DNA of 64,000 nucleotides, taken from NCBI GenBank assembly GCA_041661385.1, contig JBAZUP010000001.1, positions 495,920 through 559,919 on the forward strand, written 5' to 3'. Below are positions 1-38,477 of the stretch, in pieces; position 1 is the first letter of the stretch; each line of letters starts with the position of its first letter. The notes beneath the pieces were generated by a model. That model was not told the DNA's origin. It made no database searches and was given only the letters and a program-made list of their open reading frames with translations. Source of the stretch: Patescibacteria group bacterium. Lineage in GTDB: Bacteria > Patescibacteriota > Patescibacteriia > Magasanikbacterales > GWA2-37-8. Both the position numbers and the translations under genes were made by a program.

Positions 1-1711
1 CATCATGCATGAGCGTTGATTTGCCGGAGCCGGAAACACCGGTGAGACAAACGAACCGGCGCAACGGAATTTCTACATCAATATCTTTTAAATTATGTTC
101 AGAGGCTTTTTTAATTTTAATTTTTGGCGTCGCTCGGTCAACCTTGCGATATTCTTTTGGAATCGGAATGGACAATTCATTTCGCAAATATTTTCCGGTT
201 AGTGATTTTTTTGCGTCGCCTAATATTTTACAGCCGGTACTATCTTTTTTGGCGCTTCCCCCGAGTAACAAATCAAGCGGTCCGGAATAAACAACTTCAC
301 CCCCGTGTTTTCCGGCACCCGGGCCAATATCCACCACCCAATCACTGGTGAGTATGGTATCTTCGTCGTGTTCAACTATAATAATGGTGTTGCCGACATC
401 GCAAAGATTTCGTAAAGTTTTTACCAAGCGGTCATTATCACGCTGGTGCAAACCGATGGTTGGCTCGTCTAGCACATAAAGAGCGCCAACAAGGCGGGTG
501 CCGACCTGCGAAGCGAGACGAATGCGCTGAGCTTCACCGCCGGAAAGCGTGCCAGCCCGGCGGCCAAGACTAAGATAATGAAGACCGACATCGAACATGA
601 ATTGCAGACGGTTACTTATTTCTTTAAGCACTGTACCAGCGATTTCCCGTTCCGTATCCGGCAAATTCATATAGGTATTAGCAAAAAACTCGCGAGCTTC
701 TGCAATTGAAAGCGTCGTGACTTCCCAAATATTTTTTCCACCTACTTTTACACTTAACGCGGTTTCAGAAAGACGCTTGCCGTGACACTTCGGACATTCT
801 TCTTCGCTAAATAATTCTTTTGTACCAAGACCGGTACAAGCCTCGCAATATCCATACGGGCTATTAAAGCTAAACAAACGCGGTTCAATTTCTGGAAAAC
901 TAAAACCATCATTCGGACAAGAATATTCTGTACTATAAATATGTTCTTCACCGCTTGGATATTTTACGGTAGCAAGACCATTTGATAAATCAACCGCATT
1001 TTTTACCGCTTCATTCAAACGTTGATCGCCTTCTTTACTGTCCAAATACTTTCCATTCAGCGGTATTTTATCAACGATAATTTCCAAAGTGTGCTTATTA
1101 TTTTTAGATAAAATAATTCTTTCTTTTAGACTTTTTATTTCTCCGTCTACCCGAACTTCCAAATAACCGGAATTATAAATATCATAAAGCATCTGATAAT
1201 ATTCACCCTTTCGTCCGCGCACAATCGGCGAAAAAATTACCAATTCATTTTCAGTCTTTTTAATTTTTTTATCAATTTTTAAATTTTTTCTAACCTGCGC
1301 CACCATTTCATCCACCGTCAGCTTGGAAATTTTTGTTCCGTCTATCGGACAATGCGGTTCACCGACCCGCGCGTACAAGACCCGCATATAATCATATATC
1401 TCCGTAATTGTTGCGACAGTCGAGCGCGGATTGGCGCTGTGCGCTTTTTGATCAATAGAAATAGCCGGAGATAGCCCTTCGATTTCATCCACATCCGGTT
1501 TTTGCATACCGCCAAGAAACTGGCGCGCGTAAGCGGATAAACTTTCAATATATCGTCTTTGTCCTTCGGCAAAAATAGTATCAAAAGCAAGGCTCGATTT
1601 ACCGGAGCCGGACAGACCAGTGAACACAATCATTTTATTTCGCGGCAATTCGAGCGAAATATTTTTCAAATTATGCTCCCGCGCGCCTTTAATTACAATC
1701 TTTTCTTGCAT
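1..1711 (-). CDS. uvrA: UvrA-like excinuclease ABC subunit A, N-terminal half; second paralog, runs off the left edge
   Basis: Minus-strand frame starting at ATG 1709-1711 reads [65 protein letters not shown]..., including a Walker A (GSGKS). Downstream ABC signature is [13 protein letters not shown] second Walker A (GVSGSGKST) sits near position 1. The frame stays open to coordinate 1. The plus-strand ORFs 9-351 in the track overlap this gene and are spurious. Confidence 0.85.
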   Translation of the reverse strand, partial: MQEKIVIKGAREHNLKNISLELPRNKMIVFTGLSGSGKSSLAFDTIFAEGQRRYIESLSAYARQFLGGMQKPDVDEIEGLSPAISIDQKAHSANPRSTVATITEIYDYMRVLYARVGEPHCPIDGTKISKLTVDEMVAQVRKNLKIDKKIKKTENELVIFSPIVRGRKGEYYQMLYDIYNSGYLEVRVDGEIKSLKERIILSKNNKHTLEIIVDKIPLNGKYLDSKEGDQRLNEAVKNAVDLSNGLATVKYPSGEEHIYSTEYSCPNDGFSFPEIEPRLFSFNSPYGYCEACTGLGTKELFSEEECPKCHGKRLSETALSVKVGGKNIWEVTTLSIAEAREFFANTYMNLPDTEREIAGTVLKEISNRLQFMFDVGLHYLSLGRRAGTLSGGEAQRIRLASQVGTRLVGALYVLDEPTIGLHQRDNDRLVKTLRNLCDVGNTIIIVEHDEDTILTSDWVVDIGPGAGKHGGEVVYSGPLDLLLGGSAKKDSTGCKILGDAKKSLTGKYLRNELSIPIPKEYRKVDRATPKIKIKKASEHNLKDIDVEIPLRRFVCLTGVSGSGKSTLMHD

Positions 1712-1812
1712 GGAATTTGGTTAAAAAGGAAAAGGCCCCAACTTTATTTATATAGGGGGTATAGTTAATCTAGGATACTGTAAAAATCACACATTGTCAA
1801 TCGTTAATCACT

Positions 1813-2175
1813 CTCGCTGTCGCTCAATCAATTCATTCTTTTATCTTAATTTCTATTTCCCTAGCCCCGCGCGGGCGGCGGATACTTTCATAACTGAAAG
1901 TATCCAAAGGTTTTGGGGGTCGGCAGAACTCGTCGTGCGAACTCCTCAAACAGCTGGCGGCCCCCAAACCCCCGTTGGCTGGTCAACCAATCGCCCCTGA
2001 GCATTTGTGAAACGAGTTGCAAACTGTCCGGCGAAATTAGATTTTTTCAATACGACTATGATGATTTGAAAAAATCGTTTTGGTTTCGCCGTGACATTTG
2101 CCGAGTGGAACAACCGCTCGGCAGCTTTTGATTACTTTTCGCTGACGAAAAGTGATGCCAGCGCGGCGAGCGCTG
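1813..2175 (+). repeat. Structured repeat family, copy 1, about 360 nt; candidate ncRNA or structured MITE
   Basis: Components: start block ctcgctgtcgctcaatca; perfect 11-bp hairpin ggatactttca/taac/tgaaagtatcc at 1880-1905; stem-enclosed module 1912-1972; hairpin acttttcg/ctga/cgaaaagt at 2133-2152; closing hairpin cagcgc/ggcga/gcgctg at 2159-2175. The 5' hairpin and the 3' hairpin are imperfect inverted copies of one another. Confidence 0.75.
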
Positions 2176-2294
2176 TCATTTGGGTTAAAATGGGTGGAAC
2201 ACAGGATGCGGATAAAAAAATATGATTAAAAAGGAGGTATTGCCAAAAAAACAACTATAGATTATATTATGGATGTTATTTAATTATATAATAT

Positions 2295-2820: not shown

Positions 2821-3450
2821 TTACTCCAGCACCATCGGTAATGGATGAGTAATTTTTATTTGCCACCAGGCCTTTAGTCTCGCTCCAACTTCTCTAAATT
2901 TCATCCAGGCCAAATCGCCGCCGTAACTATGTAAATCGGCCGCAACACCAATAGTTTTGATTCCGAAATTTTCGCAAAGATAAATAATTCTCGGCAGATG
3001 AAAAGCTTGGGAAACTGCAATAACCTCGGTAAATCCAAAAATATTTGCTTCGCGATAACAACTTTCATAAGTTCGGTAGCCATGCCGGTCTAAAATTATT
3101 TTATTTTCCGGCACCCCAAAACTCATCGCCGCCTTTTTCATCGCATCGACTTCATTTTGGTATCTTTTCCCGTCATCTCCGGTCATCATTAAAATACTTA
3201 CTTTACCGGTTTTATAAAGCGCCACTCCCTCCACAATCCGGTCAGTCAGCATTTCGTTCGGCGTACCATCTGCATTTAATCCCCCGCCAAATATCAATCC
3301 AACTGTTGAAGTTGGAACATCTGCCGGAAAAACAATTTTATCTGATTTTTTTATTATGACGAGATTAGCGTAGATTATAAAAATAAAAAAGACCCCCATT
3401 AAAGTTATTACCACGCTCAAGCTAATAAATTTCCAGTGATGTTTAAGCAT
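2821..3450 (-). CDS. DUF218 (YdcF/SanA/ElyC-like) family protein
   Basis: N-terminal TM, then GLIFGGGLNADGTPNEMLTDRIVEGVALYKTGKV...MMTGDDG, typical of DUF218. ATG at 3448-3450 overlaps the uvrB stop. Confidence 0.6.
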   Translation of the reverse strand: MLKHHWKFISLSVVITLMGVFFIFIIYANLVIIKKSDKIVFPADVPTSTVGLIFGGGLNADGTPNEMLTDRIVEGVALYKTGKVSILMMTGDDGKRYQNEVDAMKKAAMSFGVPENKIILDRHGYRTYESCYREANIFGFTEVIAVSQAFHLPRIIYLCENFGIKTIGVAADLHSYGGDLAWMKFREVGARLKAWWQIKITHPLPMVLE

Positions 3451-5554
3451 TTGGTTTAATTGGCTTAGTTTTTTTTATTTTTAATTTATCTTCGGCATCC
3501 CCGACTTTTTCTCGGGCTTTAAGTTCGCGCATTTCATCCCGAAGTATCGCCGCGAGTTCAAAGTCTAGATCATGCGCGGCCTGCTTCATCTGTACTTCCT
3601 TCTCCTTTATTATAACATTAAGCGAGCGTCCATCGCCAATGAGGTCGAGTTCGGTGGTGGTGGCAAGGCGGTCACGTCGCTTCTTGGCCTCGCGGTTCTT
3701 AGCCCGGTCCGGCGAAATACCAAACTCTTCCAAAATATTCCGAATGGATTTTTCAATAGTTTTAGGCGTGATACCATGTTTCTCATTATACGCGATCTGA
3801 ATTTTCCGGCGGCGGCTAGTTTCATCCATGGCTTTTTGCATTGAACCGGTAATATTGTCGGCATACAAAACAACCTGCCCGTTTACATTGCGGGCGGCGC
3901 GGCCAATGGTCTGAATCAAACTTACCTCACTACGCAAGAACCCTTCTTTGTCAGCATCAAGAATTGCGACAAGTGAGACTTCGGGCATATCAAGACCCTC
4001 ACGCAATAAGTTGACCCCAACTATCACATCATTTTTTCCTAGCCGGAGATTGGTAATTATTTCAATTCGATCGAGAGTATCAACATCACTATGCAAATAA
4101 GCCACTTTAATTTTTTTCTCTTTTAAATAATCAGTCAGATCCTCGGCCATTTTTTTGGTAAGAGTGGTGACCAAAACCCGCTCCTTCATTTTAATTCTTT
4201 CTTCAATGCGGATAATTAAATCTTCTACCTGAGAAAGTTGCTTGCCGTCTTTTTTTCCGACGATTGGACGAATAATAATTTCCGGATCAATAAGACCAGT
4301 CGGCCGGGCAATCTGCTCAGCAACGCGTTCACTTATCTTTAATTCGTACTCCGTAGGCGTGGCAGAAACATAAACCGCTTGACCAACTTTTTTATCAAAC
4401 TCTGTATAAGTGAGCGGCCGGTTGTCGCGCGCGCTTGGCAATCGAAAGCCGTGTTCAACTAACGTATTTTTGCGCGCTTGATCACCATTATACATGGCCC
4501 GAATTTGCGGCAAGGTAACATGGCACTCGTCGATGATGGTCAAAAAATTTGCTTGTCCACCGCCACTGCCGTGAATAAAATAATCTAGGAGGGTAAAGGG
4601 CGGTTCGCCGGCACCGCGCCCTTCAAAGTGCGCGGAATAATTTTCTATGCCGCTGCAATAACCGACATTTTTTATCATTTGTAAATCATACGCGACCCGA
4701 CGCTTTAATCGTTCGTACTCCAACACTTTGCCGTTCTTTTCAAAAAATGCGAGCTGATCCTGCAATTCTTTATTGATGGTATTAAAAGCCATTTTCCGAC
4801 TTTCTTCTCCTACTACATAATGGCGGGCCGGAAAAAACCAAGCGTCTTCGATAACTTTTTTTACGGTTCTGCTCACGCTATCCACGAGCTCAATATTATC
4901 GATATGATTAGAAATTTCAAACCGATAAATTGCGTCTTCATTCACGGGCATAATTTCAAACACCTGACCGCGTAATCGGAATGAGCCCCGCTTCATTTCG
5001 CTATTAGTGCGAGTGAATTGCATGGAGATAAGCTGCTCGAGCATCGCTCGTCGGTCGAGTTTGTCGCCCTTGCGTAAATGTAAAACAATTTTTTCATATT
5101 CAAATGGCGAGCCAAGGCCGTAGATAGCCGAGACAGATGCGACTATGATGACATCTTTACGCGTAAGAAGCGCCTGAGTGCAGGCGTGGCGGAGGCGGTC
5201 GATTTCTTCATTTATCATCGCTTCCTTCTCTATATATGTATCCGAATTTGGCATGTACGCCTCGGGCTGATAGTAATCATAATAAGAAACAAAATATTCC
5301 ACGGCGTTGTGTGGAAAGAATTCGCGGAACTCGTTGCAGAGCTGAGCAGCTAAGGTTTTGTTATGGGCGATAACGAGCGTTGCCTTTTGCGTTCGCTCTA
5401 TTACATTCGCCATGGTAAAGGTTTTGCCCGAGCCGGTAACGCCAAGCAGAGTCTGCCGACGCATACCTTTTTCTATTCCATCGACCAAATCATCAATCGC
5501 TTTCGGCTGGTCTCCGGCTGGAGTCATTTTTGAGACTATTTTAAATTTTGGCAT
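3443..5554 (-). CDS. uvrB: Excinuclease ABC subunit B
   Basis: 703 aa. N-terminus PAGDQPKAIDDLVDGIEKG...GVTGSGKTFTMANVI (helicase motif I), DECH-type motif IIDECHVT, C-terminal UVR coiled-coil AAILRDEMRELKAREK. Confidence 0.95.
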   Translation of the reverse strand: MPKFKIVSKMTPAGDQPKAIDDLVDGIEKGMRRQTLLGVTGSGKTFTMANVIERTQKATLVIAHNKTLAAQLCNEFREFFPHNAVEYFVSYYDYYQPEAYMPNSDTYIEKEAMINEEIDRLRHACTQALLTRKDVIIVASVSAIYGLGSPFEYEKIVLHLRKGDKLDRRAMLEQLISMQFTRTNSEMKRGSFRLRGQVFEIMPVNEDAIYRFEISNHIDNIELVDSVSRTVKKVIEDAWFFPARHYVVGEESRKMAFNTINKELQDQLAFFEKNGKVLEYERLKRRVAYDLQMIKNVGYCSGIENYSAHFEGRGAGEPPFTLLDYFIHGSGGGQANFLTIIDECHVTLPQIRAMYNGDQARKNTLVEHGFRLPSARDNRPLTYTEFDKKVGQAVYVSATPTEYELKISERVAEQIARPTGLIDPEIIIRPIVGKKDGKQLSQVEDLIIRIEERIKMKERVLVTTLTKKMAEDLTDYLKEKKIKVAYLHSDVDTLDRIEIITNLRLGKNDVIVGVNLLREGLDMPEVSLVAILDADKEGFLRSEVSLIQTIGRAARNVNGQVVLYADNITGSMQKAMDETSRRRKIQIAYNEKHGITPKTIEKSIRNILEEFGISPDRAKNREAKKRRDRLATTTELDLIGDGRSLNVIIKEKEVQMKQAAHDLDFELAAILRDEMRELKAREKVGDAEDKLKIKKTKPIKPNA

Positions 5555-5556
5555 AT

Positions 5557-5733
5557 TTTCAATCGTTACAATGGGGGTCTGGGGGCCGCCAGCTGTTTGA
5601 GGAGCTCGCGCGACGAGTTCTGCCGGCCCCTCAGAACCTTTTGATTACTTTTCAGTTATGAAAAGTGATGCCGCCGGCAGGGCTAACGAAAATTATATTA
5701 AAGAAATACTTGATTTGATTGAGCGACAGCGAG
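5557..5733 (-). repeat. Structured repeat family, copy 3; inverted orientation, 5' portion only, abuts the uvrB start
   Basis: Reverse complement reads ctcgctgtcgctcaatca...ggcatcacttttcataactgaaaagtaatc...ggggccggcagaactcgtcgcgcgagctcctcaaacagctggcggcccccagaccccc. This is collinear with copy 1 at 1813-1975. Confidence 0.7.
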
Positions 5734-5835: not shown

Positions 5836-6348
5836 ATGAATATAGATGATTACGCGAAAATAAATATTAACCCAATCTTCGAGCCAATCAAAAGAATATT
5901 TGAATTCTATGTTCTTGGATCAATATTCGTTCCCCAGCATGAATTTCAAAAATTTGTTATACAGTCACACCCTGAACTTGCCGCCCTAATAAACGACTAC
6001 AACCATGAAGTTGACGTAAAAATTGAAAATCAAACCACGAAAACAAAAACAGCGTTATATTTCACAAGCATAGGCCGTCTGATGATAATTGCAGTTTTTG
6101 ATATTTTGCAATTTTCCAAATACCATAATAAAATAAAGAAGGATGAAATTTATAAATTTACCAAACATTTACGTAATGGAGCGGCTCATGATAATAAATT
6201 TGAAATTTCACCACCATTAAAAAAACCTATTTGTTGGCAAAACAAAACCATAACTAATTCTTTGAACGGCTCTACCGTTATTCCTGATTTTATTGACCCT
6301 ATTACTATAATTTACTTATTATCCGATATTACAGAGTTGATAAAATAA
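5836..6348 (+). CDS. Hypothetical protein with a possible HEPN-like R-x4-H motif
   Basis: 170 aa. Contains KHLRNGAAHDNKF (R-x4-H). No other recognisable motif. Family assignment is weak. Confidence 0.4.
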   Translation: MNIDDYAKININPIFEPIKRIFEFYVLGSIFVPQHEFQKFVIQSHPELAALINDYNHEVDVKIENQTTKTKTALYFTSIGRLMIIAVFDILQFSKYHNKIKKDEIYKFTKHLRNGAAHDNKFEISPPLKKPICWQNKTITNSLNGSTVIPDFIDPITIIYLLSDITELIK

Positions 6349-6425
6349 GAATAACATTTTGTGAAGTTCGACTAATTCACTCAAATAAAACCATACGAAA
6401 GAACTCCATACTGAAATACATATAA

Positions 6426-6956
6426 ATGCATCCCCAGAAAAAAGTAAAAGCCTACAATAATTTTATGATTACCATCAGATTACAAAAAATCAGCGACGCA
6501 AAACGCTTCTTTGAAATCCTCAAAAATCCTAATTTTATTTATTGGGATATTAGGCCAAAAACTATCAAGGATGAAGAAAAGTGGCTAAGAAAAAACCCCG
6601 AGCGACGCCGAAAAAATTCTGAGTTTAATTACTCTATTATTCACATTGGAGAAATAGTCGGAGCGGTAGGTGTAAAAATAAATTCCGGCCGTCCGCACAT
6701 TGGTGAAATTGGCTATTTTTTAGATGAAAAATACTGGGGACAAGGCATCACCACCACAGCAGTAAAATTACTGGAAACAATTTGCTTAAAAAAACTAAAA
6801 CTAAAGCGTCTGGAAATTGTCATGCAACCAGGAAATAAAGCAAGTGAAAAAGTCGCTATCAAATGCGGTTACAAAAAAGAAGGATTGTTAAAAAAATTAC
6901 TTAAACACCAAGATGGTAAATATCACGATAGTTACATGTACGCAAAAACTATTTAA
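6426..6956 (+). CDS. GNAT family N-acetyltransferase (RimJ/RimL-like)
   Basis: HIGEIGYFLDEKYWGQGITTTAVKLLETICLKKLKLKRLEIVMQPGNKASEKVAIKCGYKKEG fits the GNAT fold (acetyl-CoA Q/RxxGxG/A-like segment). Confidence 0.7.
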   Translation: MHPQKKVKAYNNFMITIRLQKISDAKRFFEILKNPNFIYWDIRPKTIKDEEKWLRKNPERRRKNSEFNYSIIHIGEIVGAVGVKINSGRPHIGEIGYFLDEKYWGQGITTTAVKLLETICLKKLKLKRLEIVMQPGNKASEKVAIKCGYKKEGLLKKLLKHQDGKYHDSYMYAKTI

Positions 6957-6966
6957 TAACATCTCT

Positions 6967-7416
6967 ATGAGCAAAGAAAAAGATTTATACCAAGTATCCT
7001 TAAAAGCTGTAATAAAAAATAATAACGGTGAAATTTTGTTGCTAAAAGCGTTGCTCAACGGCTCCCACGCTGGCTACTATGATTTACCCGGCGGGCGCAT
7101 TGATAAGGATGAATTTACCATTCCACTTACGGATATTTTAAAAAGAGAAATTTCGGAAGAAGTTGGGAATATTGATGTCGTAATAAAACCAACGCCTGTC
7201 GCAGTGGCTCGCCACTGTATACCCGGATCTATGACTAAAACCGGCAAAGACATTCATGTTCTATATATTTTATTTGAAGTCGAATATAAAGGAGGAAAAA
7301 TTGTAATCAGCAACGAACATACCGATTTCAAATGGGCGGATTTTTCAAAAGAAAATCCTGAAAATCTTCTTTCGTCCGGAAATTTGGAAGGTATTAAAAT
7401 GTATCTTGCGAAATAA
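6967..7416 (+). CDS. NUDIX hydrolase
   Basis: Nudix box GGRIDKDEFTIPLTDILKREISEEVGN (Gx5Ex7REUxEExGU). Start moved to ATG 6967 (MSKEKDLY) to avoid overlap with the upstream GNAT gene. Confidence 0.7.
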   Translation: MSKEKDLYQVSLKAVIKNNNGEILLLKALLNGSHAGYYDLPGGRIDKDEFTIPLTDILKREISEEVGNIDVVIKPTPVAVARHCIPGSMTKTGKDIHVLYILFEVEYKGGKIVISNEHTDFKWADFSKENPENLLSSGNLEGIKMYLAK

Positions 7417-7462
7417 TATGCTTTTCAACGAACACCTACAAAATAAAATTTAATTATTAAAT

Positions 7463-7723
7463 ATGGACAAAACCGAAATCAGACGTAAGTGGGACCTTTT
7501 ACCAAAAGAAAAAAGACTATCTTGTATTGAGGCAATCGTCACATTTTTTCAAGAAACCCGGGAAGAAAAAATCGGTATAATTGCCGCTGAAGATATCTTA
7601 GACTTCTTTTTGCGGGATATTAGAAAATATATTTATAATAAAGGTGTTGAGGATTCAAAAGAAATTTTAAAAAAAGGTTTTAATAGCTTGGATGTGGATC
7701 TTGCTATTTTACAAGATAAATAA
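7463..7723 (+). CDS. DUF2164-like small acidic protein
   Basis: 86 aa. EEKIGIIAAEDILDFFLRDIRKYIYNKGVEDSK resembles DUF2164, from memory of the family consensus. Confidence 0.45.
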   Translation: MDKTEIRRKWDLLPKEKRLSCIEAIVTFFQETREEKIGIIAAEDILDFFLRDIRKYIYNKGVEDSKEILKKGFNSLDVDLAILQDK

Positions 7724-7724
7724 T

Positions 7725-8030
7725 ATGTTCTACAACAAACTCGTCCGCGATAAAATCCCCGACATAATCAAAAGCAAAGGCGAAACGCCAGTGACGCATA
7801 TTGCGGATGAAAAAGAGTATGCCGAGGCGCTAGCCAAAAAGCTTCACGAAGAAACCGACGAATTTAATACTAAACCCTCGGTAGAAGAAGCGGCAGATAT
7901 TATGGAAGTACTAATGGCGGTCGCGAAGCTAAATAATATTGATTTGAGCGGTTTGGAAGAAGTTCGAAAGAAAAAAGCCACTGACCGCGGCGGGTTTGAA
8001 AAACGAATAATTTTGGACGAAACAAAATAA
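7725..8030 (+). CDS. MazG-like nucleoside triphosphate pyrophosphohydrolase domain protein
   Basis: MFYNKLVRDKIPDII...EEAADIMEVLMAVAKLNNIDL; all-alpha MazG/HisE-type EExxD motif. Start at ATG 7725. Confidence 0.55.
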   Translation: MFYNKLVRDKIPDIIKSKGETPVTHIADEKEYAEALAKKLHEETDEFNTKPSVEEAADIMEVLMAVAKLNNIDLSGLEEVRKKKATDRGGFEKRIILDETK

Positions 8031-8032
8031 TT

Positions 8033-8272
8033 ATGACTAAAAATATTTCGGAAATAATCGGCTGGTATGGAACTGCAGCGATACTACTCGCCTACGCTTT
8101 GTTAAGCTTCGGTGTCTTGTCTTCTAACAATATATTTTATCAACTCTTAAACATCACCGGCGCACTTGGCCTAGTGATAATATCCTTCCGGAAAAAAACC
8201 TACCAACCCGGTATTTTAAATATTATTTGGTCAATTATCGCGGCCATCGCGATAATTAAAATGTTTATATAA
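8033..8272 (+). CDS. Small membrane protein with 2-3 TM helices
   Basis: 79 aa, hydrophobic segments AAILLAYALLSFGVL, LGLVIISF, IIWSIIAAIAIIKMFI. Confidence 0.5.
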   Translation: MTKNISEIIGWYGTAAILLAYALLSFGVLSSNNIFYQLLNITGALGLVIISFRKKTYQPGILNIIWSIIAAIAIIKMFI

Positions 8273-19793: not shown

Positions 19794-19830
19794 GGGCGTG
19801 TAACTCAGCGGTTAGAGTGCCACCTTTATA
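19794..19830 (+). other. 5' half of an interrupted tRNA (acceptor 5' strand, D-arm, anticodon stem 5' strand, loop start)
   Basis: gggcgtg ta actc agcggtta gagt g ccacc tttata. Acceptor strand is complementary, with one G-U pair, to catgccc in the 3' half at 20068-20074. Confidence 0.6.
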
Positions 19831-19875
19831 TTTACTAGGGACGAACGAAATACAAATGATTGGTGCGCCAAAAAC

Positions 19876-19948
19876 GCGCCTGTAACTCAGCGGTAAGAGT
19901 GCCACCCTTATAAGGTGGAAGTCGATGGTTCGATTCCATCCAGGCGCA
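19876..19948 (+). tRNA. tRNA, anticodon read as UAU (Ile, AUA-decoding), 73 nt, no encoded CCA
   Basis: gcgcctg/caggcgc acceptor; D-arm actc-agcggtaa-gagt; anticodon arm ccacc-cttataa-ggtgg; T-arm gatgg-ttcgatt-ccatc; discriminator A. Anticodon identity is from a manual fold. Confidence 0.7.
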
Positions 19949-19982
19949 CCGCTCATTTGCATTTCTGAGGCCCGACGTAAAT

Positions 19983-20038
19983 ATATCTGCTAGTGAGGAA
20001 AAAATGAATTAATTCGCTTTTTCCTCACTAGCAGATAT
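19983..20038. repeat. Perfect 21-bp inverted repeat with a 14-nt loop, immediately 5' of the tRNA 3' half
   Basis: atatctgctagtgaggaaaaa ...atgaattaattcgc... tttttcctcactagcagatat. All 21 pairs are Watson-Crick. Confidence 0.8.
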
Positions 20039-20039
20039 A

Positions 20040-20075
20040 AGGTGGAGGTCGATGGTTCGATTCCATCCATGCCCA
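20040..20075 (+). other. 3' half of the interrupted tRNA (anticodon stem 3' strand, variable loop, T-arm, acceptor 3' strand)
   Basis: a ggtgg aggtc gatgg ttcgatt ccatc catgccc a. 37 of 38 nt identical to the 3' part of the intact tRNA up to the acceptor. The rluD-like ATG follows 1 nt later. Confidence 0.6.
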
Positions 20076-20076
20076 C

Positions 20077-21674: not shown

Positions 21675-21784
21675 TACCTCACTTAAATGAAATATAACTT
21701 TATAGGGGTAAAAACCTCATATATTCTCATTCGCTCGAGAATAATTAAAATCAATTTAAATTATTCCACTCACTCATTTCGAAT

Positions 21785-22138
21785 ATGGCTGAAGAAATTA
21801 AAGTAGCGGCTGCCCCCCAGTACAAACCTGGCATGGTAGTAAAAATTCACCAGAAAATTAAAGAATTCAACACCAAGGGTGAAGAAAAAGAACGTATCCA
21901 GGTCTTTGAAGGAACTATTATCGCAGTTAGGCACGGCAATGAAGTCGGCGCCACAATGACTGTTCGAAAAGTTTCTGACGGCGTAGGAGTTGAAAAAATC
22001 TATCCTTTGCTTTCTCCAATCATCGACAAGATCGAAATCGTCAAAACTCTCGAAGTAAGACGTGCCAAACTGCACTTCTTGCGCGGCAGTGATTTCAAGC
22101 GTAAAATGTCTGAAAAGAAAAAGATTGTAAAGAAGTAG
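21785..22138 (+). CDS. rplS: 50S ribosomal protein L19
   Basis: [13 protein letters not shown]...[21 protein letters not shown]...TMTVRK; L19 signature. Confidence 0.9.
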
Positions 22139-22190: not shown

Positions 22191-25031
22191 TTACAAATAC
22201 TTTCCGGTCCAGCTTTTTTTATTTTTCCGGATATCGGCCGGCGTGCCGACTGCAACTACTTCACCGCCACCTTTGCCACCCTCTGGACCCATATCAATAA
22301 TCCAATCTGCCGAGCGGATGACATCTAGATTGTGTTCAATGATCAAAACCGAGTTACCTTTCAGAACCAATTGACTAAGTACTTGGAGCAAGCGTTTGGT
22401 ATCTTCAAAATGCAAACCAGTCGTAGGTTCGTCTAAGATATACAAAGTATTGCCGGTTGAGGCGCGCGACAATTCCTGAGCGAGTTTAATACGCTGAGCC
22501 TCACCACCGGAAATGGTCGTAGCCGGCTGGCCTAATTCCACATAACCAAGACCAACTTCACGCAAGACATTTAACTTGTCGGAGATGGCTGGATATTCGT
22601 GGAAAAAAGTGTAAGCCTCTTCCACAGTCATTTTTAGAACATCCGCAATATGTTTGTTGTGATATTTAATTTCGAGCGCTTCCTGATTATAACGCAAACC
22701 ATTACACTCGCCGCATTCCACAAACACATCAGCTAAAAATTGCATTGGGATTCGCACATAACCTTCACCAGCACAGGCTTCACAGCGGCCGCCTTTTACA
22801 TTAAAACTAAATTTACCGGCATCATAACCGCGTAGGCGCGCTTCAGACAACGATGAGAAAAGGTCGCGAATCAAAGTAAAGACTCCCGTATAAGTAGCGG
22901 GGTTCGAGCGCGGCGTACGACCAATCGGCGATTGGTCAATTGCGATGACTTTATCAACATTTGAAACACCCTTAATACTTTTGTGAGCACCCGGTTCATC
23001 TTTTGCGCGATAAAAATATTTTGATAATGCCTTACTTAAAATATCAATTATCAAAGTTGATTTACCGGATCCAGAAACACCAGTCACTGCCACTAATTTT
23101 TGCAACGGAATTTCAACATCAATGTTTTTTAAATTAAATGCTTTGGCACCAGTAATAATAATCGATTTTTTAGCTTTAGGTTGTACTTTTGACCGTGGTC
23201 CTTTACGGCGGAATTCTTCACTAATATCAATTCTTCCGGACAAATACTCAGCCGTTAAAGATTTTTTATTTTTCTTAAAATCCGGTAAAGTTCCGGCAGC
23301 AATCACCTCGCCGCCATACACACCGGCGCCGGGACCAATATCAATAAGATAATCAGCTTCGAGCATCATCGCTGGATCGTGTTCAACTACAATCACTGTA
23401 TTACCAAGATCGCGCAAATATTTAAGTGTGTGAATAAGTTTTTGGTTATCACGGGGGTGCAGACCAACCGAGGGCTCGTCGAGAATATAAATAACACCAG
23501 TGAGACCCGCCGAAAGCTGGCTGGCAAGACGCACACGTGTTACTTCACCGCCCGAAAGCGTATTCATGGCCCGGCTAAGATTAAGATAGCCAAGGCCGAC
23601 CTGCTCAAGATTCTGTAGACGCGGCAAAATTTCACGAATAATCGGCTCGACAATTTTAGAGGATTTTTTATAATTTTCAGCTTTATCGTTTTTTGTTTTT
23701 ATATCAATCCCAAACATTTTTACCAAAAAAGTCCGGCTCTCTTCAATACTCATACCGGCCATATCCGAAATTGTATACTCGCCTACTCGAACCGAGAGTG
23801 ATTCTTGACGCAGACGTTTGCCCTGACAAATCGGACAAATTTTTTCGCGCATGTATTGTTCAATTTCTTTACGGACATATTCAGAATTTGTTTCGAGGTG
23901 CTTTTGCATCAGATCCGGTATTACACCAGGATAAGAAACTTTTTTTCCATCGACATCAAACCTTTCACTGCCGCTTCCGTACAAAATAATATTAAGAGTC
24001 TTGGCTTGTAATTCTGCGACCGGAGTATGTACAGAAAAACCATAAAGCTCTGCCACTTTGGTCAGAATCTTTTGATACCAGCTCTGGTTTCCGGTGATTC
24101 GGGTCCAAGGCTGAATCGCGCCTTCGGCAAGCGTTAATTTACTATTTGGTATTACTAATGTTGGATCTACTTCCATGGTCACACCAAGACCGGTACAGCG
24201 CTGGCAAGCACCATAGGGGCTATTAAAACTAAAGCTGCGCATGTCGAGCGTCGGCATTATGCGACCACAGCGCGGACAAAGTCCAACCGTAGAAAAAAGT
24301 TGAGATTTGTCACCGGTCACAATTTTAACGAGACCATTGCTAAGGTCCTCAGCGGTTTCAACCGGTTTTGTGAGGTCATCTTTTTTTACATTCATTATTT
24401 TTCCGACCAGCAAATCTACATCATAAGGCTGCTCATCAAAAAATTTGTATTCTGCAAGTTCATTTATTTTTAAAAGTTCACCGTTTACTCTCACCCATTC
24501 ATAACCGGACTTCTCTATTTTTTCAATCAAATCCTTTGATTCCACCATGGAATCACGCACCAGCGGCGCATATATTTCCACCAATACCGCTTTGCGCGCC
24601 AGTTCACGTACTTTCTCTACTATCTTTCCAACTGAAAAAACTTCTACCGGAATATGGCAGTCTGGACAGTGCTGAGTACCGGAACGTGCAAAAAGCAAAC
24701 GCAAGTAATCATAAATTTCAGTAACCGTTCCGACAGTTGAACGTGGATTCTGAGTAGAAACTTTTTGGTCAATCGCGATAGTCGGTGAAAGACCGTCAAT
24801 GGAATCGACGTCGGGCTTATCTTGCACATCCATAAACTGCCTGGCGTAAGATGAAAGCGATTCGGCATAACGGCGCTGGCCTTCGGCGTAAATAGTATCA
24901 AAGGCAAGACTGGATTTACCGGAACCCGAAAGACCGGTGATTACCACCAGTTTATTCTTCGGAATTTCCAGGCTAATATTTTTTAAGTTGTGCGCCCGAG
25001 CTCCTTTAATTATCAATTTCTGATTTGGCAT
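22191..25031 (-). CDS. uvrA: Excinuclease ABC subunit A, full length
   Basis: 946 aa. Two ABC modules ([25 protein letters not shown]), signature [12 protein letters not shown], zinc-finger Cys clusters. Confidence 0.95.
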
Positions 25032-32796: not shown

Positions 32797-32824
32797 CAAA
32801 AACCCGCCTTGCGGCGGGTTTTTT
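32797..32824. terminator. Bidirectional terminator; 3' end of rnpB on the minus strand
   Basis: aaaaacccgccttgcggcgggtttttt. Confidence 0.75.
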
Positions 32825-32825
32825 A

Positions 32826-33217
32826 GTCTAAAGTTATAAGCCGAATTCTGTCAAGCCTCCCTTTCGGAAGACAGGGATAATCATTTATCTGGGATGGTTG
32901 TTACCAACCACCTCTAGCGAGCGAACTTTTCGAATCCGTTTTACCGGAAACGCTGCTCTTGCATCAGGTAGGGTTTAGCACACTCGTAAATCGCTTTACA
33001 AGGAGTATAGTGGCTTTGATCTAGAACCAAAACCTCCATACACTTTTCACCTTTCATCCCGACTAAATCGGAACTAGTATTGTCTCTGTGCCACTTTCCC
33101 GACTGCCGTATCACTACGGGAGTGGTGGGCGTTACCCACTACCACTTTCCGCCTTGCGACGGAGATGTTCGGACTTTCCTCCCCATGCGAAGCATGGAGC
33201 GATTATCTACTTTAGAC
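32826..33217 (-). ncRNA. rnpB: RNase P RNA
   Basis: Minus-strand motifs: GGAAAGUCCGAAC (P4 5' strand), GAAAGUGGCACAGAGACAA, ACAGAAUUCGGCUUAU (P4 3' strand). P1 pairs gucuaaagu (5') with acuuuagac (3'). Confidence 0.85.
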
Positions 33218-33224
33218 GGTAAAT

Positions 33225-37295: not shown

Positions 37296-37343
37296 ACTAT
37301 ATATGGGCTTCGCCACATATATTCTCATTCATTCATTTCGAAT

Positions 37344-38477
37344 ATGAACATCGGCGTGGACTTACGTTGTTTGCAGTCGCCCTACCGCACGGGTGTTGGC
37401 GAATACGCCTTTGAACTTATTACCGCCATCCTAAAAACTGACCGACAAAATCAATATTTTTTGTTTTATAATTCGCTTTTTACTCCAACCTTGCCGGAAT
37501 TTAATTTTCCAAATGTAACGATAGCTAAATTTTCTTTCCCAAACAAACTTCTTAATTTATCATCACTTTTTTTTAAATATCCTAAAATTGACCTGCTAAT
37601 TAGAAATAAATTTAAACTTTCAAAACTTGATTACTTTTTTTCTCCCAATCTAAATTTCACTTCACTCTCATCAGAAACCAAACACCTGCTTACTATTCAC
37701 GACCTGACCTTCGAACTGTTTCCAAATTATCTTACTGCAAAACAACTAATTTGGCATCGTCTCGCCAATACTCGCCGACAATGCGAAGAAGCTAAAATTA
37801 TATTTACTCCCTCGAGTAATACTAAACGTGATTTAATAGAATATTTTAATTTACCCGCTGAAAAAGTAAAGACTATTTACCCGGGTTTATCTTCTGTTTT
37901 CCAAAAAACCAATACTTCTGAAATTGTAAAGAAAAATAATTTACCCGAAAAATTTATTTTATTTTTAGGAACTTTAGAACCGCGAAAAAATATTACCTCA
38001 ATTATTCGCGCCTTTGAAATGTCGCAAAATAGCTTATCGGATAAATATGATTTGGTCATTGCCGGCGCGCCCGGCTGGAAAAATAGTAAAATTAAAATGC
38101 TTTCGCAAAAAAGTATTTTAAAAAACCGCATTCATTTTGTTGGCTATATAAATGATTCAGATAAACCTGAACTATATAAAAAATCTGCATTATTTATTTA
38201 TCCCAGTTTTTATGAGGGTTTTGGTTTTCCGGTTCTTGAAGCGATGGCGTCGGGGGTTCCCGTAATTACTTCCAACCGTTCTTCATTGCCAGAAATTACC
38301 GACGGGGCGGCACACCTCGTGAACCCGCACCGCATAGATGAAATAACTAACGGGATTATAAAAATTCTGAGTAACCAAGAATACCGGAATGAAATGATAA
38401 AAAATGGCCTTGAAAGATCAAAAGTTTTCCATAATGAAAAAGCGGCTCGGGAATGGCTTTCAGTAATTTTAGCTTAG
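37344..38477 (+). CDS. GT4-family glycosyltransferase
   Basis: EGFGFPVLEAMASGVPVITS. Confidence 0.8.
   Translation: MNIGVDLRCLQSPYRTGVGEYAFELITAILKTDRQNQYFLFYNSLFTPTLPEFNFPNVTIAKFSFPNKLLNLSSLFFKYPKIDLLIRNKFKLSKLDYFFSPNLNFTSLSSETKHLLTIHDLTFELFPNYLTAKQLIWHRLANTRRQCEEAKIIFTPSSNTKRDLIEYFNLPAEKVKTIYPGLSSVFQKTNTSEIVKKNNLPEKFILFLGTLEPRKNITSIIRAFEMSQNSLSDKYDLVIAGAPGWKNSKIKMLSQKSILKNRIHFVGYINDSDKPELYKKSALFIYPSFYEGFGFPVLEAMASGVPVITSNRSSLPEITDGAAHLVNPHRIDEITNGIIKILSNQEYRNEMIKNGLERSKVFHNEKAAREWLSVILA

What the first reader, a model, noticed from the sequence alone, without database searches (positions are those of the whole stretch)
1813..2175. Roughly 360-nt structured repeat (copy 1) belonging to a three-copy family; helices kept by compensatory substitutions
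Three loci share long near-identical blocks: 1813-2175, 8313-8693 and an inverted copy at 5557-5733. Shared blocks are the start ctcgctRtcgctcaatca, a perfect hairpin ggatactttca-taac-tgaaagtatcc, and a 58-nt 3' block holding the hairpin acttttcg-ctga-cgaaaagt. Where the copies differ, pairing is kept. The closing hairpin is cagcgc/gcgctg in copy 1 but agccc/gggct in copy 2. The stem enclosing the middle module is ggggtcggcag/ctggcggcccc in copy 1 but gatcgtcgatat/atatcgac in copy 2. That covariation argues for a transcribed structured RNA rather than neutral repeat DNA. The 5' and 3' hairpin blocks are also imperfect inverted copies of each other, which gives a MITE-like architecture. The element matches no RNA family I recognise. 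It lacks tmRNA, SRP and 6S hallmarks, and no IscB/TnpB-type ORF is adjacent.
Basis: seen in the sequence. Interest (0 to 1): 0.72.

Follow-up and report, generated by a model that had tools for sequence, protein, structure and literature searches.

The report
Mosaic hairpin-rich mobile repeat in Patescibacteria
The three copies are real members of a small, undescribed family of hairpin-packed, non-coding repeats that come and go between related candidate-phyla-radiation genomes, so they look more like a miniature mobile DNA element than a conserved RNA gene.

Summary
Three copies sit at 1813-2175 (+), 8313-8695 (+) and 5733-5557 (-, truncated), and there are no others in about 70 kb. The host is a Patescibacteria MAG. 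I found about 11 further copies in relatives.

The element is a mosaic of modules:
- an 18-nt motif, CTCGCTRTCGCTCAATCA, followed by an AT-rich leader;
- imperfect terminal inverted repeats of about 50 nt, each made of two hairpins;
- a GC rod;
- one of two alternative central rods;
- a terminator-like hairpin.

Base pairing is clearly conserved: 91% of cells are paired and 25 pairs show changes on both sides. Rfam gives no match.

Several results argue against a conserved RNA gene. Syntenic relatives have empty sites. Other relatives carry copies at different places. Modules occur in both orientations. Truncated and dimeric forms exist. A strand-symmetric count finds no excess of G·U over A·C (9 versus 12).

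The best reading is a new MITE/BOX/BIME-like non-autonomous mobile repeat, with confidence about 0.55. It is probably co-transcribed with its neighbours: copy 3 must lie in the uvrB 5' UTR. A mobile structured-RNA gene is not excluded (about 0.25). Copies lie next to uvrA or uvrB unusually often, and this is unexplained.

The parts
1804..2208 (+). Copy 1, full length. It lies between the divergent promoters of uvrA (ATG at 1711, - strand) and a 149-aa gene (2295, + strand).
   Evidence: nhmmer extent comes and the sequence. The syntenic relative L130 has only 22 nt between the same two promoters. The same junction appears in two further read sets, whose contigs break inside the repeat.
1813..1830 (+). 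M motif CTCGCTGTCGCTCAATCA, the outer end of the element. In L124 and L125 it is also present, inverted, at the far end.
1831..1861 (+). AT-rich leader. It carries a -10-like hexamer (CTTAAT, 1845-1850) at a position kept in all copies that have a leader. The promoter role is inferred only.
   Evidence: Read from the sequences. The consensus promoter scan does not report it.
1864..1905 (+). Left inverted-repeat block: short GC hairpin S5 (1864-1876) plus the 11-bp hairpin H5 (1880-1905).
1915..1965 (+). GC rod P3: GGGGGTCGGCAG...CTGGCGGCCCCC. It encloses the conserved loops AACTCG / CTCAAACAG.
2019..2101 (+). Central long imperfect hairpin ('rod'). The segment TGTC/GACA here is TGCC/GGCA in L125 and TTCC/GGAA in L123.
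2100..2129 (+). Hairpin GCCGAG..CTCGGC followed by CTTTTG, which is terminator-like.
2131..2175 (+). Right inverted-repeat block: hairpin H3 (2131-2156) plus GC hairpin S3 with loop GGCGA (2159-2175).
8313..8695 (+). Copy 2, full length, between the convergent 3' ends of a 79-aa ORF and ftsW/rodA. The ftsW stop codon TAG (8692-8694, - strand) is formed at the element end GGGC|TA.
   Evidence: Relatives end ftsW with TAA followed by their own terminator.
8557..8593 (+). In copy 2 the central rod is replaced by an inverted copy of the CAGAACTCG..CTCAAACAGCTG module.
   Evidence: Sequence. The L127 copy has the same arrangement.
5557..5733 (-). Copy 3, a truncated unit (M, leader, S5, H5, P3). 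It is in the same orientation as uvrB and ends 23 nt before the uvrB ATG.
   Evidence: It is 93% identical to the L123 copy from another metagenome but only 83% and 61% identical to copies 1 and 2.
3443..5554 (-). uvrB. Its mRNA must read through copy 3, because there is no room for a promoter between the element and the ATG. A promoter-like site, TTGATT-17-TAAAAT, lies upstream at 5827-5799.
   Evidence: Transcription through copy 3 is an inference.
5836..8272 (+). Low-GC block of six small genes (unknown 170 aa, GNAT, NUDIX, DUF2164, MazG-like, 79 aa). It is bracketed by copies 3 and 2 in inverted orientation with their M ends facing the block. The block is absent in L130 and only partly present in L129.

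Best explanation
The three loci belong to a previously undescribed family of non-autonomous, mosaic, palindrome-rich mobile DNA repeats. The family is of the MITE/BOX/BIME kind and is confined to a narrow Patescibacteria lineage related to Magasanikbacteria.

**Architecture.** A basic unit of about 125 nt consists of a GC hairpin, an 11-13-bp hairpin and a GC rod. Full-length forms of 320-440 nt add:
- a linker;
- one of two alternative central rods;
- a terminator-like hairpin;
- an inverted copy of the two-hairpin end block, which gives imperfect terminal inverted repeats of about 50 nt;
- often an outer 18-nt motif with an AT-rich leader.

**Proposed mechanism (inferred).** A trans-acting transposase or recombinase encoded elsewhere recognises the hairpin-bearing ends and moves or copies the element into intergenic DNA. 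Recombination between copies then shuffles modules.

**Pairing.** Stem pairing is kept because the arms must stay complementary at the DNA level, as single-strand hairpins or cruciforms or through arm-to-arm correction.

**Consequences once inserted (inferred).** The element is co-transcribed with its neighbours and becomes part of their UTRs. Copy 3 forms the uvrB 5' UTR. Copy 2 abuts the ftsW stop codon.
For: **Presence and absence at the same sites.**
- Syntenic relatives with 85-89% UvrB identity (L129, L130, L131), and more distant ones (L135-L138), have no copy within +/-10 kb.
- In L130 the uvrA and 149-aa promoters are 22 nt apart, where the window carries the roughly 440-nt copy 1.
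- ftsW ends with its own TAA and terminator in L129 and L130.
- Other relatives carry copies at different sites: L120 after DUF218 and after uvrA, and L127 after uvrA2, where the window has none.

**Inverted repeats and variant forms.**
- Terminal inverted repeats score far above shuffles. L133A also carries a perfect 19-nt inverted pair, ACCGCCTACGCGGCGGGCG, near its ends, read from the sequence.
- There are truncated units (copy 3, L120a), an inverted dimer of units (L122) and nested or alternative modules. These include a 36-38-nt hairpin splitting the M motif in L119, L121 and L123, and an inverted P3 module in copy 2 and L127.
- Orientation relative to flanking genes is not fixed.

**Conservation pattern.**
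- Between genomes the element is 78-90% identical in DNA. The highly conserved uvrA and uvrB coding DNA of the same genomes is 68-81% identical.
- Copy 3 is closer to copies in another metagenome (93%) than to copies 1 and 2 of its own genome.

**No sign of an RNA strand or a coding function.**
- There is no strand bias of wobble pairs.
- There is no Rfam family.
- There is no conserved reading frame.
- Short-read contigs break inside the repeat.
Against: - No target-site duplication could be shown. The empty sites are too diverged, and a TA at the core ends is only suggestive.
- No partner transposase was found in the window or beside any copy, and none with matching ends is known.
- Internal helices, not only the ends, are kept by compensatory change across diverged copies: 25 of 73 pairs, against 10.4 in shuffles and 4-7 in slid controls. 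Ordinary MITEs do not need this.
- Short unpaired blocks are also conserved, for example CCGAGCATTTGTGAAACGA and GAGTGGAACAAC.
- Seven of ten copies fold somewhat better on the 'canonical' strand.
- Copy number per genome appears low and clustered.
Confidence: 0.55

Rival explanations
1. A mobile structured non-coding RNA gene. The M motif and leader act as a promoter. The core of about 270-320 nt, from about 1857 to the terminator-like hairpin at 2100-2129 or to 2175, is the RNA product. Its multi-helix fold is under selection, and the gene duplicates or transfers between genomes.
For: - Pairing is strongly conserved, with many double changes.
- Folding z-scores are very low, at -8.2.
- A -10-like hexamer is kept at a fixed distance from the M motif in an otherwise poorly conserved leader (sequences).
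- A hairpin followed by a U-run lies on the same strand.
- The forward strand is the more stable one in 7 of 10 copies.
- Unpaired blocks are conserved.
- DNA conservation exceeds that of uvrA and uvrB coding sequence.
Against: - The symmetric count shows no G·U excess over A·C (9 versus 12), and reverse-strand folds are nearly as good.
- The P3 module and the end block occur in both orientations within elements.
- Units without any leader exist (L120a, L122).
- The element is not conserved at orthologous loci.
- There is no acceptable -35, and the promoter scan finds nothing in the leader.
- There is no Rfam relative.
Confidence: 0.25
2. Recombination sites that bound gene cassettes. The copies would mark the borders of segments that are exchanged or relocated: uvrB-DUF218, and the low-GC block 5836-8272. 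A site-specific or homologous recombination system would act on them, rather than the copies being transposable units themselves.
For: - In L133 two direct copies with near-identical 3' halves flank uvrB-DUF218. There the pair sits after rpsL-rpsG-fusA instead of after ftsW.
- In the window, copies 1 and 3 are inverted around uvrB-DUF218-149aa with identical M motifs outermost.
- Copies 3 and 2 are inverted around a low-GC block that is missing in L130.
Against: - L131 has uvrB-DUF218 beside the tuf/rpsJ genes, away from ftsW, without any copy.
- L129 and L130 have the same gene order as the window without copies.
- Six or more copies lie in unrelated contexts with no cassette-like neighbour.
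- No integrase or recombinase was found.
Confidence: 0.08
3. A cis-regulatory leader or operator for nucleotide-excision-repair genes, for example a damage-responsive RNA or protein-binding site, that has been duplicated.
For: Copies lie next to uvr genes unusually often:
- 5' of uvrA1 (copy 1);
- 5' of uvrB (copy 3 and L133A, in two different genomic contexts, both in sense orientation);
- 3' of uvrA1 (L120b);
- 3' of uvrA2 (L127);
- 3' of the uvrB operon (L120a, L133B).

Against: - Five relatives have uvrA and uvrB without any copy.
- Many copies are 3' of genes or antisense to them.
- Six copies are next to unrelated genes.
- No LexA-type palindrome was seen.
- Sampling was biased towards uvrB loci.
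Confidence: 0.05

Closest known systems
MITEs of bacteria (e.g. Correia/NEMIS elements of Neisseria, RUP of Streptococcus pneumoniae)
   Same: - Short and non-coding.
- Imperfect terminal inverted repeats.
- Intergenic location, with insertion polymorphism between related genomes.
- Co-transcription with neighbours as hairpin-forming UTR sequence.
- Possible TA at the ends.
- No transposase of its own.
   Different: - No target-site duplication has been demonstrated.
- No parent IS with the same ends is known.
- The ends are themselves pairs of hairpins.
- Internal helices are maintained by compensatory change.
- Copy number appears low, and copies are clustered.
BOX elements (S. pneumoniae) and BIMEs (E. 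coli): mosaic intergenic repeats
   Same: - Built from a small set of hairpin-forming modules.
- The modules vary in number, order and orientation between copies.
- Truncated and composite forms exist.
- Located between genes, including between convergent 3' ends.
   Different: - The sequences are unrelated.
- The units are larger (125 to about 440 nt).
- The host is a candidate-phyla-radiation lineage with a small genome.
- No known binding proteins.
REP/REPIN elements mobilised by RAYT (TnpA-REP) transposases
   Same: - Palindromic units whose stems covary.
- Inverted doublets forming one long hairpin (L122 resembles a REPIN).
- Likely action as single-strand hairpins.
   Different: - The unit is several times longer than a REP.
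- No conserved GTAG-type 5' tetranucleotide.
- No RAYT gene was seen in the window or in any locus.
Large structured bacterial ncRNAs and transposon-derived guide RNAs (OLE, ROOL, GOLLD, HEARO/omega RNA)
   Same: - Size of 300-400 nt.
- Many helices, low folding energy and conserved pairing.
- Some of these RNAs are multi-copy and associated with mobile DNA.
   Different: - No Rfam match even at E = 10.
- No adjacent IscB, TnpB or any other partner ORF.
- Not conserved at orthologous loci.
- Modules are inverted between copies.
- No strand-specific wobble signal.

Membership tests
MITE (miniature inverted-repeat transposable element) | Short (under about 600 bp) with no coding capacity | tested here: met
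   Copies are 125-440 nt. All six frames contain stops, and the frame shifts between copies.
MITE (miniature inverted-repeat transposable element) | Terminal inverted repeats | tested here: met
   Local alignment of the 5' block against the reverse-complemented 3' block scores 13-23, against 6.5-7.1 +/- 1.3 in shuffles. L133A also has a perfect 19-nt inverted pair near its ends, seen in the sequence. In L124 and L125 the M motif is inverted at both ends.
MITE (miniature inverted-repeat transposable element) | Insertion polymorphism: filled versus empty sites | tested here: met
   L129, L130 and L131 are syntenic and empty. L120, L127 and L133 are filled at other sites.
MITE (miniature inverted-repeat transposable element) | Target-site duplication flanking the insertion | tested here: inconclusive
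   The empty sites come from genomes with only about 72-77% DNA identity, so the junctions are blurred. TA is seen at some core ends (TA|GCCC...GGGC|TA in copy 2) but not at all.
MITE (miniature inverted-repeat transposable element) | An autonomous IS with the same ends encoding the transposase | not tested
   None is present in the 64-kb window or the loci held.
REP/REPIN-RAYT | A 20-40-nt imperfect palindrome with a conserved 5' tetranucleotide, plus a RAYT gene flanked by REPs | tested here: not met
   Units are at least 125 nt with several different hairpins. No Y1-transposase domain appears in any ORF scanned. A RAYT elsewhere in the genome cannot be excluded.
Structured ncRNA gene (Rfam-type family) | Match to a curated family | tested here: not met
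   There are no hits at gathering thresholds. On copy 1 the E<=10 scan gave only seven chance-level hits, all far below their gathering scores. The copy 2/3 region gave none at E<=1. L133A gave three chance-level hits below gathering at E<=1.
Structured ncRNA gene (Rfam-type family) | Conserved secondary structure supported by covariation | tested here: met
   91% of cells are paired, against 83.6% in shuffles. 25 pairs have double changes, against 10.4 in shuffles and 4-7 in slid controls. The figures are partly inflated by non-homologous module swaps in copy 2 and L127.
Structured ncRNA gene (Rfam-type family) | Strand-specific signal (G·U tolerated, A·C avoided) and a fixed module orientation | tested here: not met
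   In pairs that are Watson-Crick in most sequences, G·U occurs 9 times and A·C 12 times. Reverse-strand alifold gives -46.9 against -54.3. The P3 module and the end block occur in both orientations.
Structured ncRNA gene (Rfam-type family) | Conservation at orthologous loci, and a discrete transcript | tested here: not met
   The orthologous sites are empty in relatives. Transcript ends cannot be tested with these tools.
IS200/IS605-type omega-RNA or IscB/TnpB-associated RNA | An adjacent or overlapping TnpB/IscB gene, or a match to its RNA family | tested here: not met
   The neighbours are uvrA, uvrB, DUF218, ftsW and small housekeeping genes. There is no Rfam hit.

The most novel reading that the evidence does not exclude
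The element could be a mobile gene for a large, multi-helix RNA, or an element whose transcript is functional. It would be specific to a Patescibacteria lineage and preferentially associated with nucleotide-excision-repair genes. For example, it might supply promoter and UTR control of uvrB and uvrA, or use repair-gene flanks as a landing site. That would make it a new class of mobile regulatory RNA in ultra-small bacteria.
Probability: 0.2. Interest if true: 0.7.

Novelty: new member of a known kind. Interest (0 to 1): 0.4.

Why it matters
Candidate-phyla-radiation bacteria have very small, streamlined genomes. In the literature searches made here I found no description of interspersed mosaic repeats in them.

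A repeat family that inserts between promoters, at stop codons and in front of uvrB would be a source of regulatory change and genome rearrangement in these organisms. It would also cause assembly breaks in their MAGs.

If the minority reading is right, and the element is a functional mobile RNA tied to DNA-repair genes, it would be a new RNA class. On the majority reading it is a tidy but unsurprising addition to the MITE/BOX/BIME kind.

Tried and rejected
- **Genome-contig scan.** It returned only matches at the number expected by chance (about 70 for 17 specified bases in 596 Gb) plus an unrelated high-copy Saprospiraceae repeat.
- **Spurious ORFs as protein baits.** ORFs lying on the element found only one new locus (P0001, giving L127/L128) and, for the L133 ORF, nothing but itself.
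- **Viral contigs.** Three element patterns gave 0 hits.
- **Strand assignment.** Comparison by MFE, alifold energy, internal G·U counts and a symmetric G·U/A·C count gave no consistent asymmetry.
- **Target-site duplications.** The search at filled and empty sites was inconclusive.
- **Possible promoter link.** The M motif resembles the window's 'ATATTCTCATTCGCTCAAAA' motif upstream of nusG and rplK. The shared 8-mer TCGCTCAA occurs about as often as chance predicts, so I dropped the link.
- **Families considered and rejected:**
  - tmRNA, SRP RNA, 6S RNA, group I intron and known ribozymes, because Rfam gives no hits;
  - integron attC array, because there are no repeats between the block genes;
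  - DGR or retron, because there is no reverse transcriptase;
  - protein-coding, because every frame contains stops and the frame shifts between copies.
- **Literature.** Three searches found no description of such repeats in Patescibacteria.

Full report

Yes. The 18-mer CTCGCTRTCGCTCAATCA occurs exactly three times in the window: at 1813 (+), 8313 (+) and 5733 (-). Shuffles give 0.05 expected matches even with three mismatches allowed. The 3' hairpin block occurs three times, with 0 expected. The repeat finder recovers the shared 5' and 3' blocks at 90-98% identity.

Copies 1 and 2 are full length. They share their 5' third and their 3' quarter, but their centres differ. Copy 3 lies on the minus strand. 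It is a truncated unit that stops 23 nt before the uvrB start codon.

nhmmer and a covariance model find no further copy in the window or in 6.5 kb of extra flank. Copy 1 folds much better than shuffled sequence on both strands, with z = -8.2 and -4.8.

**2. Host and context**

The window is part of ENA contig ERZ27249449:k141_161267 (217 kb). Its UvrB is identical to NCBI proteins annotated 'MAG: Patescibacteria group bacterium'. Relatives at about 72% identity are Magasanikbacteria.

- Copy 1 lies between the divergent promoters of uvrA and a 149-aa gene.
- Copy 3 lies directly upstream of uvrB, in the sense orientation.
- Copy 2 lies between the convergent 3' ends of a 79-aa ORF and ftsW/rodA. 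The ftsW stop codon TAG is formed at the element's last bases (sequences).

No transposase, integrase, reverse transcriptase, TnpB or IscB is encoded anywhere in the 64 kb.

**3. More copies elsewhere**

One metagenome scan with the hairpin pattern returned seven loci, all from JGI Ga0172379. A spurious ORF lying on the element led to another copy in two ENA assemblies, L127 and L128. uvrB-centred loci of relatives gave two more diverged copies in three NCBI MAGs, L132-L134.

Together these define the architecture. Reading from the 5' end, the modules are:
- an outer motif M, (AT)CTCGCTRTCGCTCAA, which in three copies is split by a 36-38-nt GC hairpin;
- an AT-rich leader of about 38 nt;
- a short GC hairpin S with loop GGCGA/TCGCC;
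- an 11-13-bp hairpin H;
- a GC rod, P3, enclosing the conserved loops AACTCG and CTCAAACAG;
- a small linker hairpin;
- the conserved block CCGAGCATTTGTGAAACGA;
- a long central rod of one of two unrelated types;
- a hairpin GCCGAG..CTCGGC followed by CTTTTG;
- H and S again, in inverted orientation.

The H-S blocks therefore form imperfect terminal inverted repeats of about 50 nt. They score 13-23 against 6.5-7.1 +/- 1.3 for shuffles. L133A also carries a perfect 19-nt inverted pair near its ends.

Several variant forms occur:
- L124 and L125 also carry M inverted at the far end.
- L120a and copy 3 are single units of about 125 nt.
- L122 is an inverted dimer of two such units without a leader.
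- In copy 2 and in L127 the central rod is an inverted copy of the P3 module.
- Copies A and B of L133 share near-identical 3' halves but have different 5' halves.

This is a mosaic of modules, not one fixed molecule.

**4. Mobility**

Three relatives whose UvrB is 85-89% identical have no copy within +/-10 kb. Two of them, L129 and L130, have the same gene order as the window: ftsW, uvrB, DUF218, 149-aa gene, then uvrA where the contig extends that far. The third is L131. More distant relatives, L135 and L136-L138, have none either. This holds by nhmmer and by the covariance model.

In L130 the two divergent promoters, TTGCCA and TTGACT-17-TATCCT, are 22 nt apart. In the window about 440 nt containing copy 1 lie between them. 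In L129 and L130, ftsW ends with TAA and its own terminator.

Conversely, other genomes carry copies where the window has none. L120 is syntenic with the window and has copies after DUF218 and directly after the uvrA stop codon, but none at the copy 1 site. L127 has a copy after uvrA2, where the window has only a terminator.

Between genomes the element is 78-90% identical in DNA, while uvrA and uvrB coding DNA is 68-81% identical. Copy 3 is 93% identical to a Ga0172379 copy but only 83% and 61% identical to copies 1 and 2. Two Logan assemblies break exactly inside copy 1, as repeats cause.

I could not demonstrate a target-site duplication. The available empty sites are too diverged. A TA at the core ends is only suggestive.

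**5. RNA or DNA?**

Pairing is clearly conserved. On seven full-length copies RNAalifold predicts 73 pairs, of which 25 show changes on both sides. For that structure 91% of cells pair, against 83.6% in shuffles and 34-47% when partners are slid. The number of double-change pairs is 25, against 10.4 in shuffles and 4-7 in the slid controls.

Examples:
- TGTC/GACA, TGCC/GGCA and TTCC/GGAA in the central rod;
- CAGCGC/GCGCTG, AGCCC/GGGCT and CAGTCC/GGACTG in the closing hairpin.

Some of the count comes from aligning non-homologous rods in copy 2 and L127.

This signal does not single out an RNA strand.
- The forward strand has the lower energy in 7 of 10 copies.
- The alifold energy is -54.3 forward against -46.9 reverse.
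- Internal G·U counts are 36 forward and 53 reverse.
- In a strand-symmetric test on pairs that are Watson-Crick in most sequences, the minority cells are G·U 9 times and A·C 12 times. As I understand it, a functional RNA normally shows a strong excess of G·U.

No Rfam family matches above chance level: nothing at gathering thresholds, and only chance-level hits below gathering at E up to 10 for copy 1 or E up to 1 for the other copies.

A -10-like hexamer sits at a conserved distance from M in the leader, and a terminator-like hairpin lies on the same strand. No acceptable -35 is present, however, and the leader is missing from some units.

Copy 3 must nevertheless be transcribed. Only 23 nt separate it from the uvrB ATG. 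The nearest promoter-like site, TTGATT-17-TAAAAT at 5827-5799, lies upstream of the element. This is an inference.

**6. Verdict**

The best-supported explanation, at confidence about 0.55, is a new family of non-autonomous, mosaic, palindrome-rich mobile repeats. It is of the MITE/BOX/BIME kind and belongs to a narrow Patescibacteria lineage. Its copies are co-transcribed with neighbouring genes.

The main rival, at about 0.25, is a mobile gene for a large structured RNA. Conservation of internal helices and of some unpaired blocks keeps it alive.

Two minor rivals are recombination sites bounding relocatable cassettes and a cis-regulatory element of uvr genes.

**7. Unexplained: the link with uvr genes**

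Seven of about fourteen distinct copies lie directly beside uvrA1, uvrA2, uvrB or the uvrB-DUF218 operon. In two lineages the element sits just upstream of uvrB although uvrB is in different genomic neighbourhoods: after ftsW in the window and after fusA in L132-L134.

Sampling was biased towards uvrB loci, and five relatives have uvr genes without copies. I therefore record this as a lead, not a finding.

In the window, copies 1 and 3 are inverted around uvrB-DUF218-149aa, with identical M motifs outermost. Copies 3 and 2 are inverted around a low-GC six-gene block that L130 lacks.

Noticed in passing
window 19793-20076: Two halves of a tRNA-Ile(UAU)-like gene flank about 205 nt of other sequence. 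The 5' half is at 19793-19830 and ends in the anticodon loop. The 3' half is at 20036-20076. Their acceptor arms are complementary. The intervening sequence holds an intact, 91-93% similar tRNA-Ile(UAU) (19876-19948) and a 58-nt, 93%-complementary palindrome (19982-20039). ARAGORN and Rfam call only the inner tRNA, and there is no group I intron hit.
   Followed up: partly
window 13997-14035, 14676-14714, 21748-21786, 37321-37346, 51335-51307 (-): A conserved motif of about 25 nt, TTCTCAYTCATTTCGAATATG, runs into the start codon of nusG, rplK, rplS, a glycosyltransferase and a 379-aa gene. A partial second copy, ATATATTCTCATTCGCTC, often lies 30-40 nt upstream. No Shine-Dalgarno sequence is present. 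It may be a shared promoter or leader signal.
   Followed up: partly
window 5836-8272: A low-GC block (0.28-0.37) of six small same-strand genes: unknown 170 aa, GNAT, NUDIX, DUF2164, MazG-like and 79 aa. It lies between ftsW and uvrB. L130 lacks it and L129 has only the MazG-like gene. The ftsW-uvrB spacer is a variable hot spot.
   Followed up: partly
L120 2004-2335; L129 8997-9227; L130 9661-9864: In relatives, unrelated small GC-rich ORFs (67-110 aa) occupy the same variable intergenic spots near uvrA and uvrB. They contrast with the AT-rich surroundings and look like separate insertions.
   Followed up: no
window 1-1711 and 22191-25031: There are two uvrA paralogues, about 50% identical in protein. 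The second is followed by a 451-aa unknown gene and a DsbA-like gene. The arrangement is conserved in L127.
   Followed up: no
L131, L132-L134 versus window, L129, L130, L135, L136: The uvrB-DUF218 pair sits among the rpsL-rpsG-fusA / tuf-rpsJ ribosomal genes in some close relatives and after ftsW in others. The pair has therefore been relocated within this lineage.
   Followed up: no
L001-L118 (genome contigs), e.g. L004 1436-1453: Saprospiraceae MAGs carry a high-copy repeat of about 60-70 nt in which CTCGCTYTCGCTCAATCA lies between the inverted arms AAAATTTYC and GRAAATTT. It is unrelated to the Patescibacteria element beyond that 18-mer.
   Followed up: no
window 32821-33218 (-): Bacterial RNase P RNA class A, scoring 176 bits. 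It is an ordinary housekeeping RNA.
   Followed up: no
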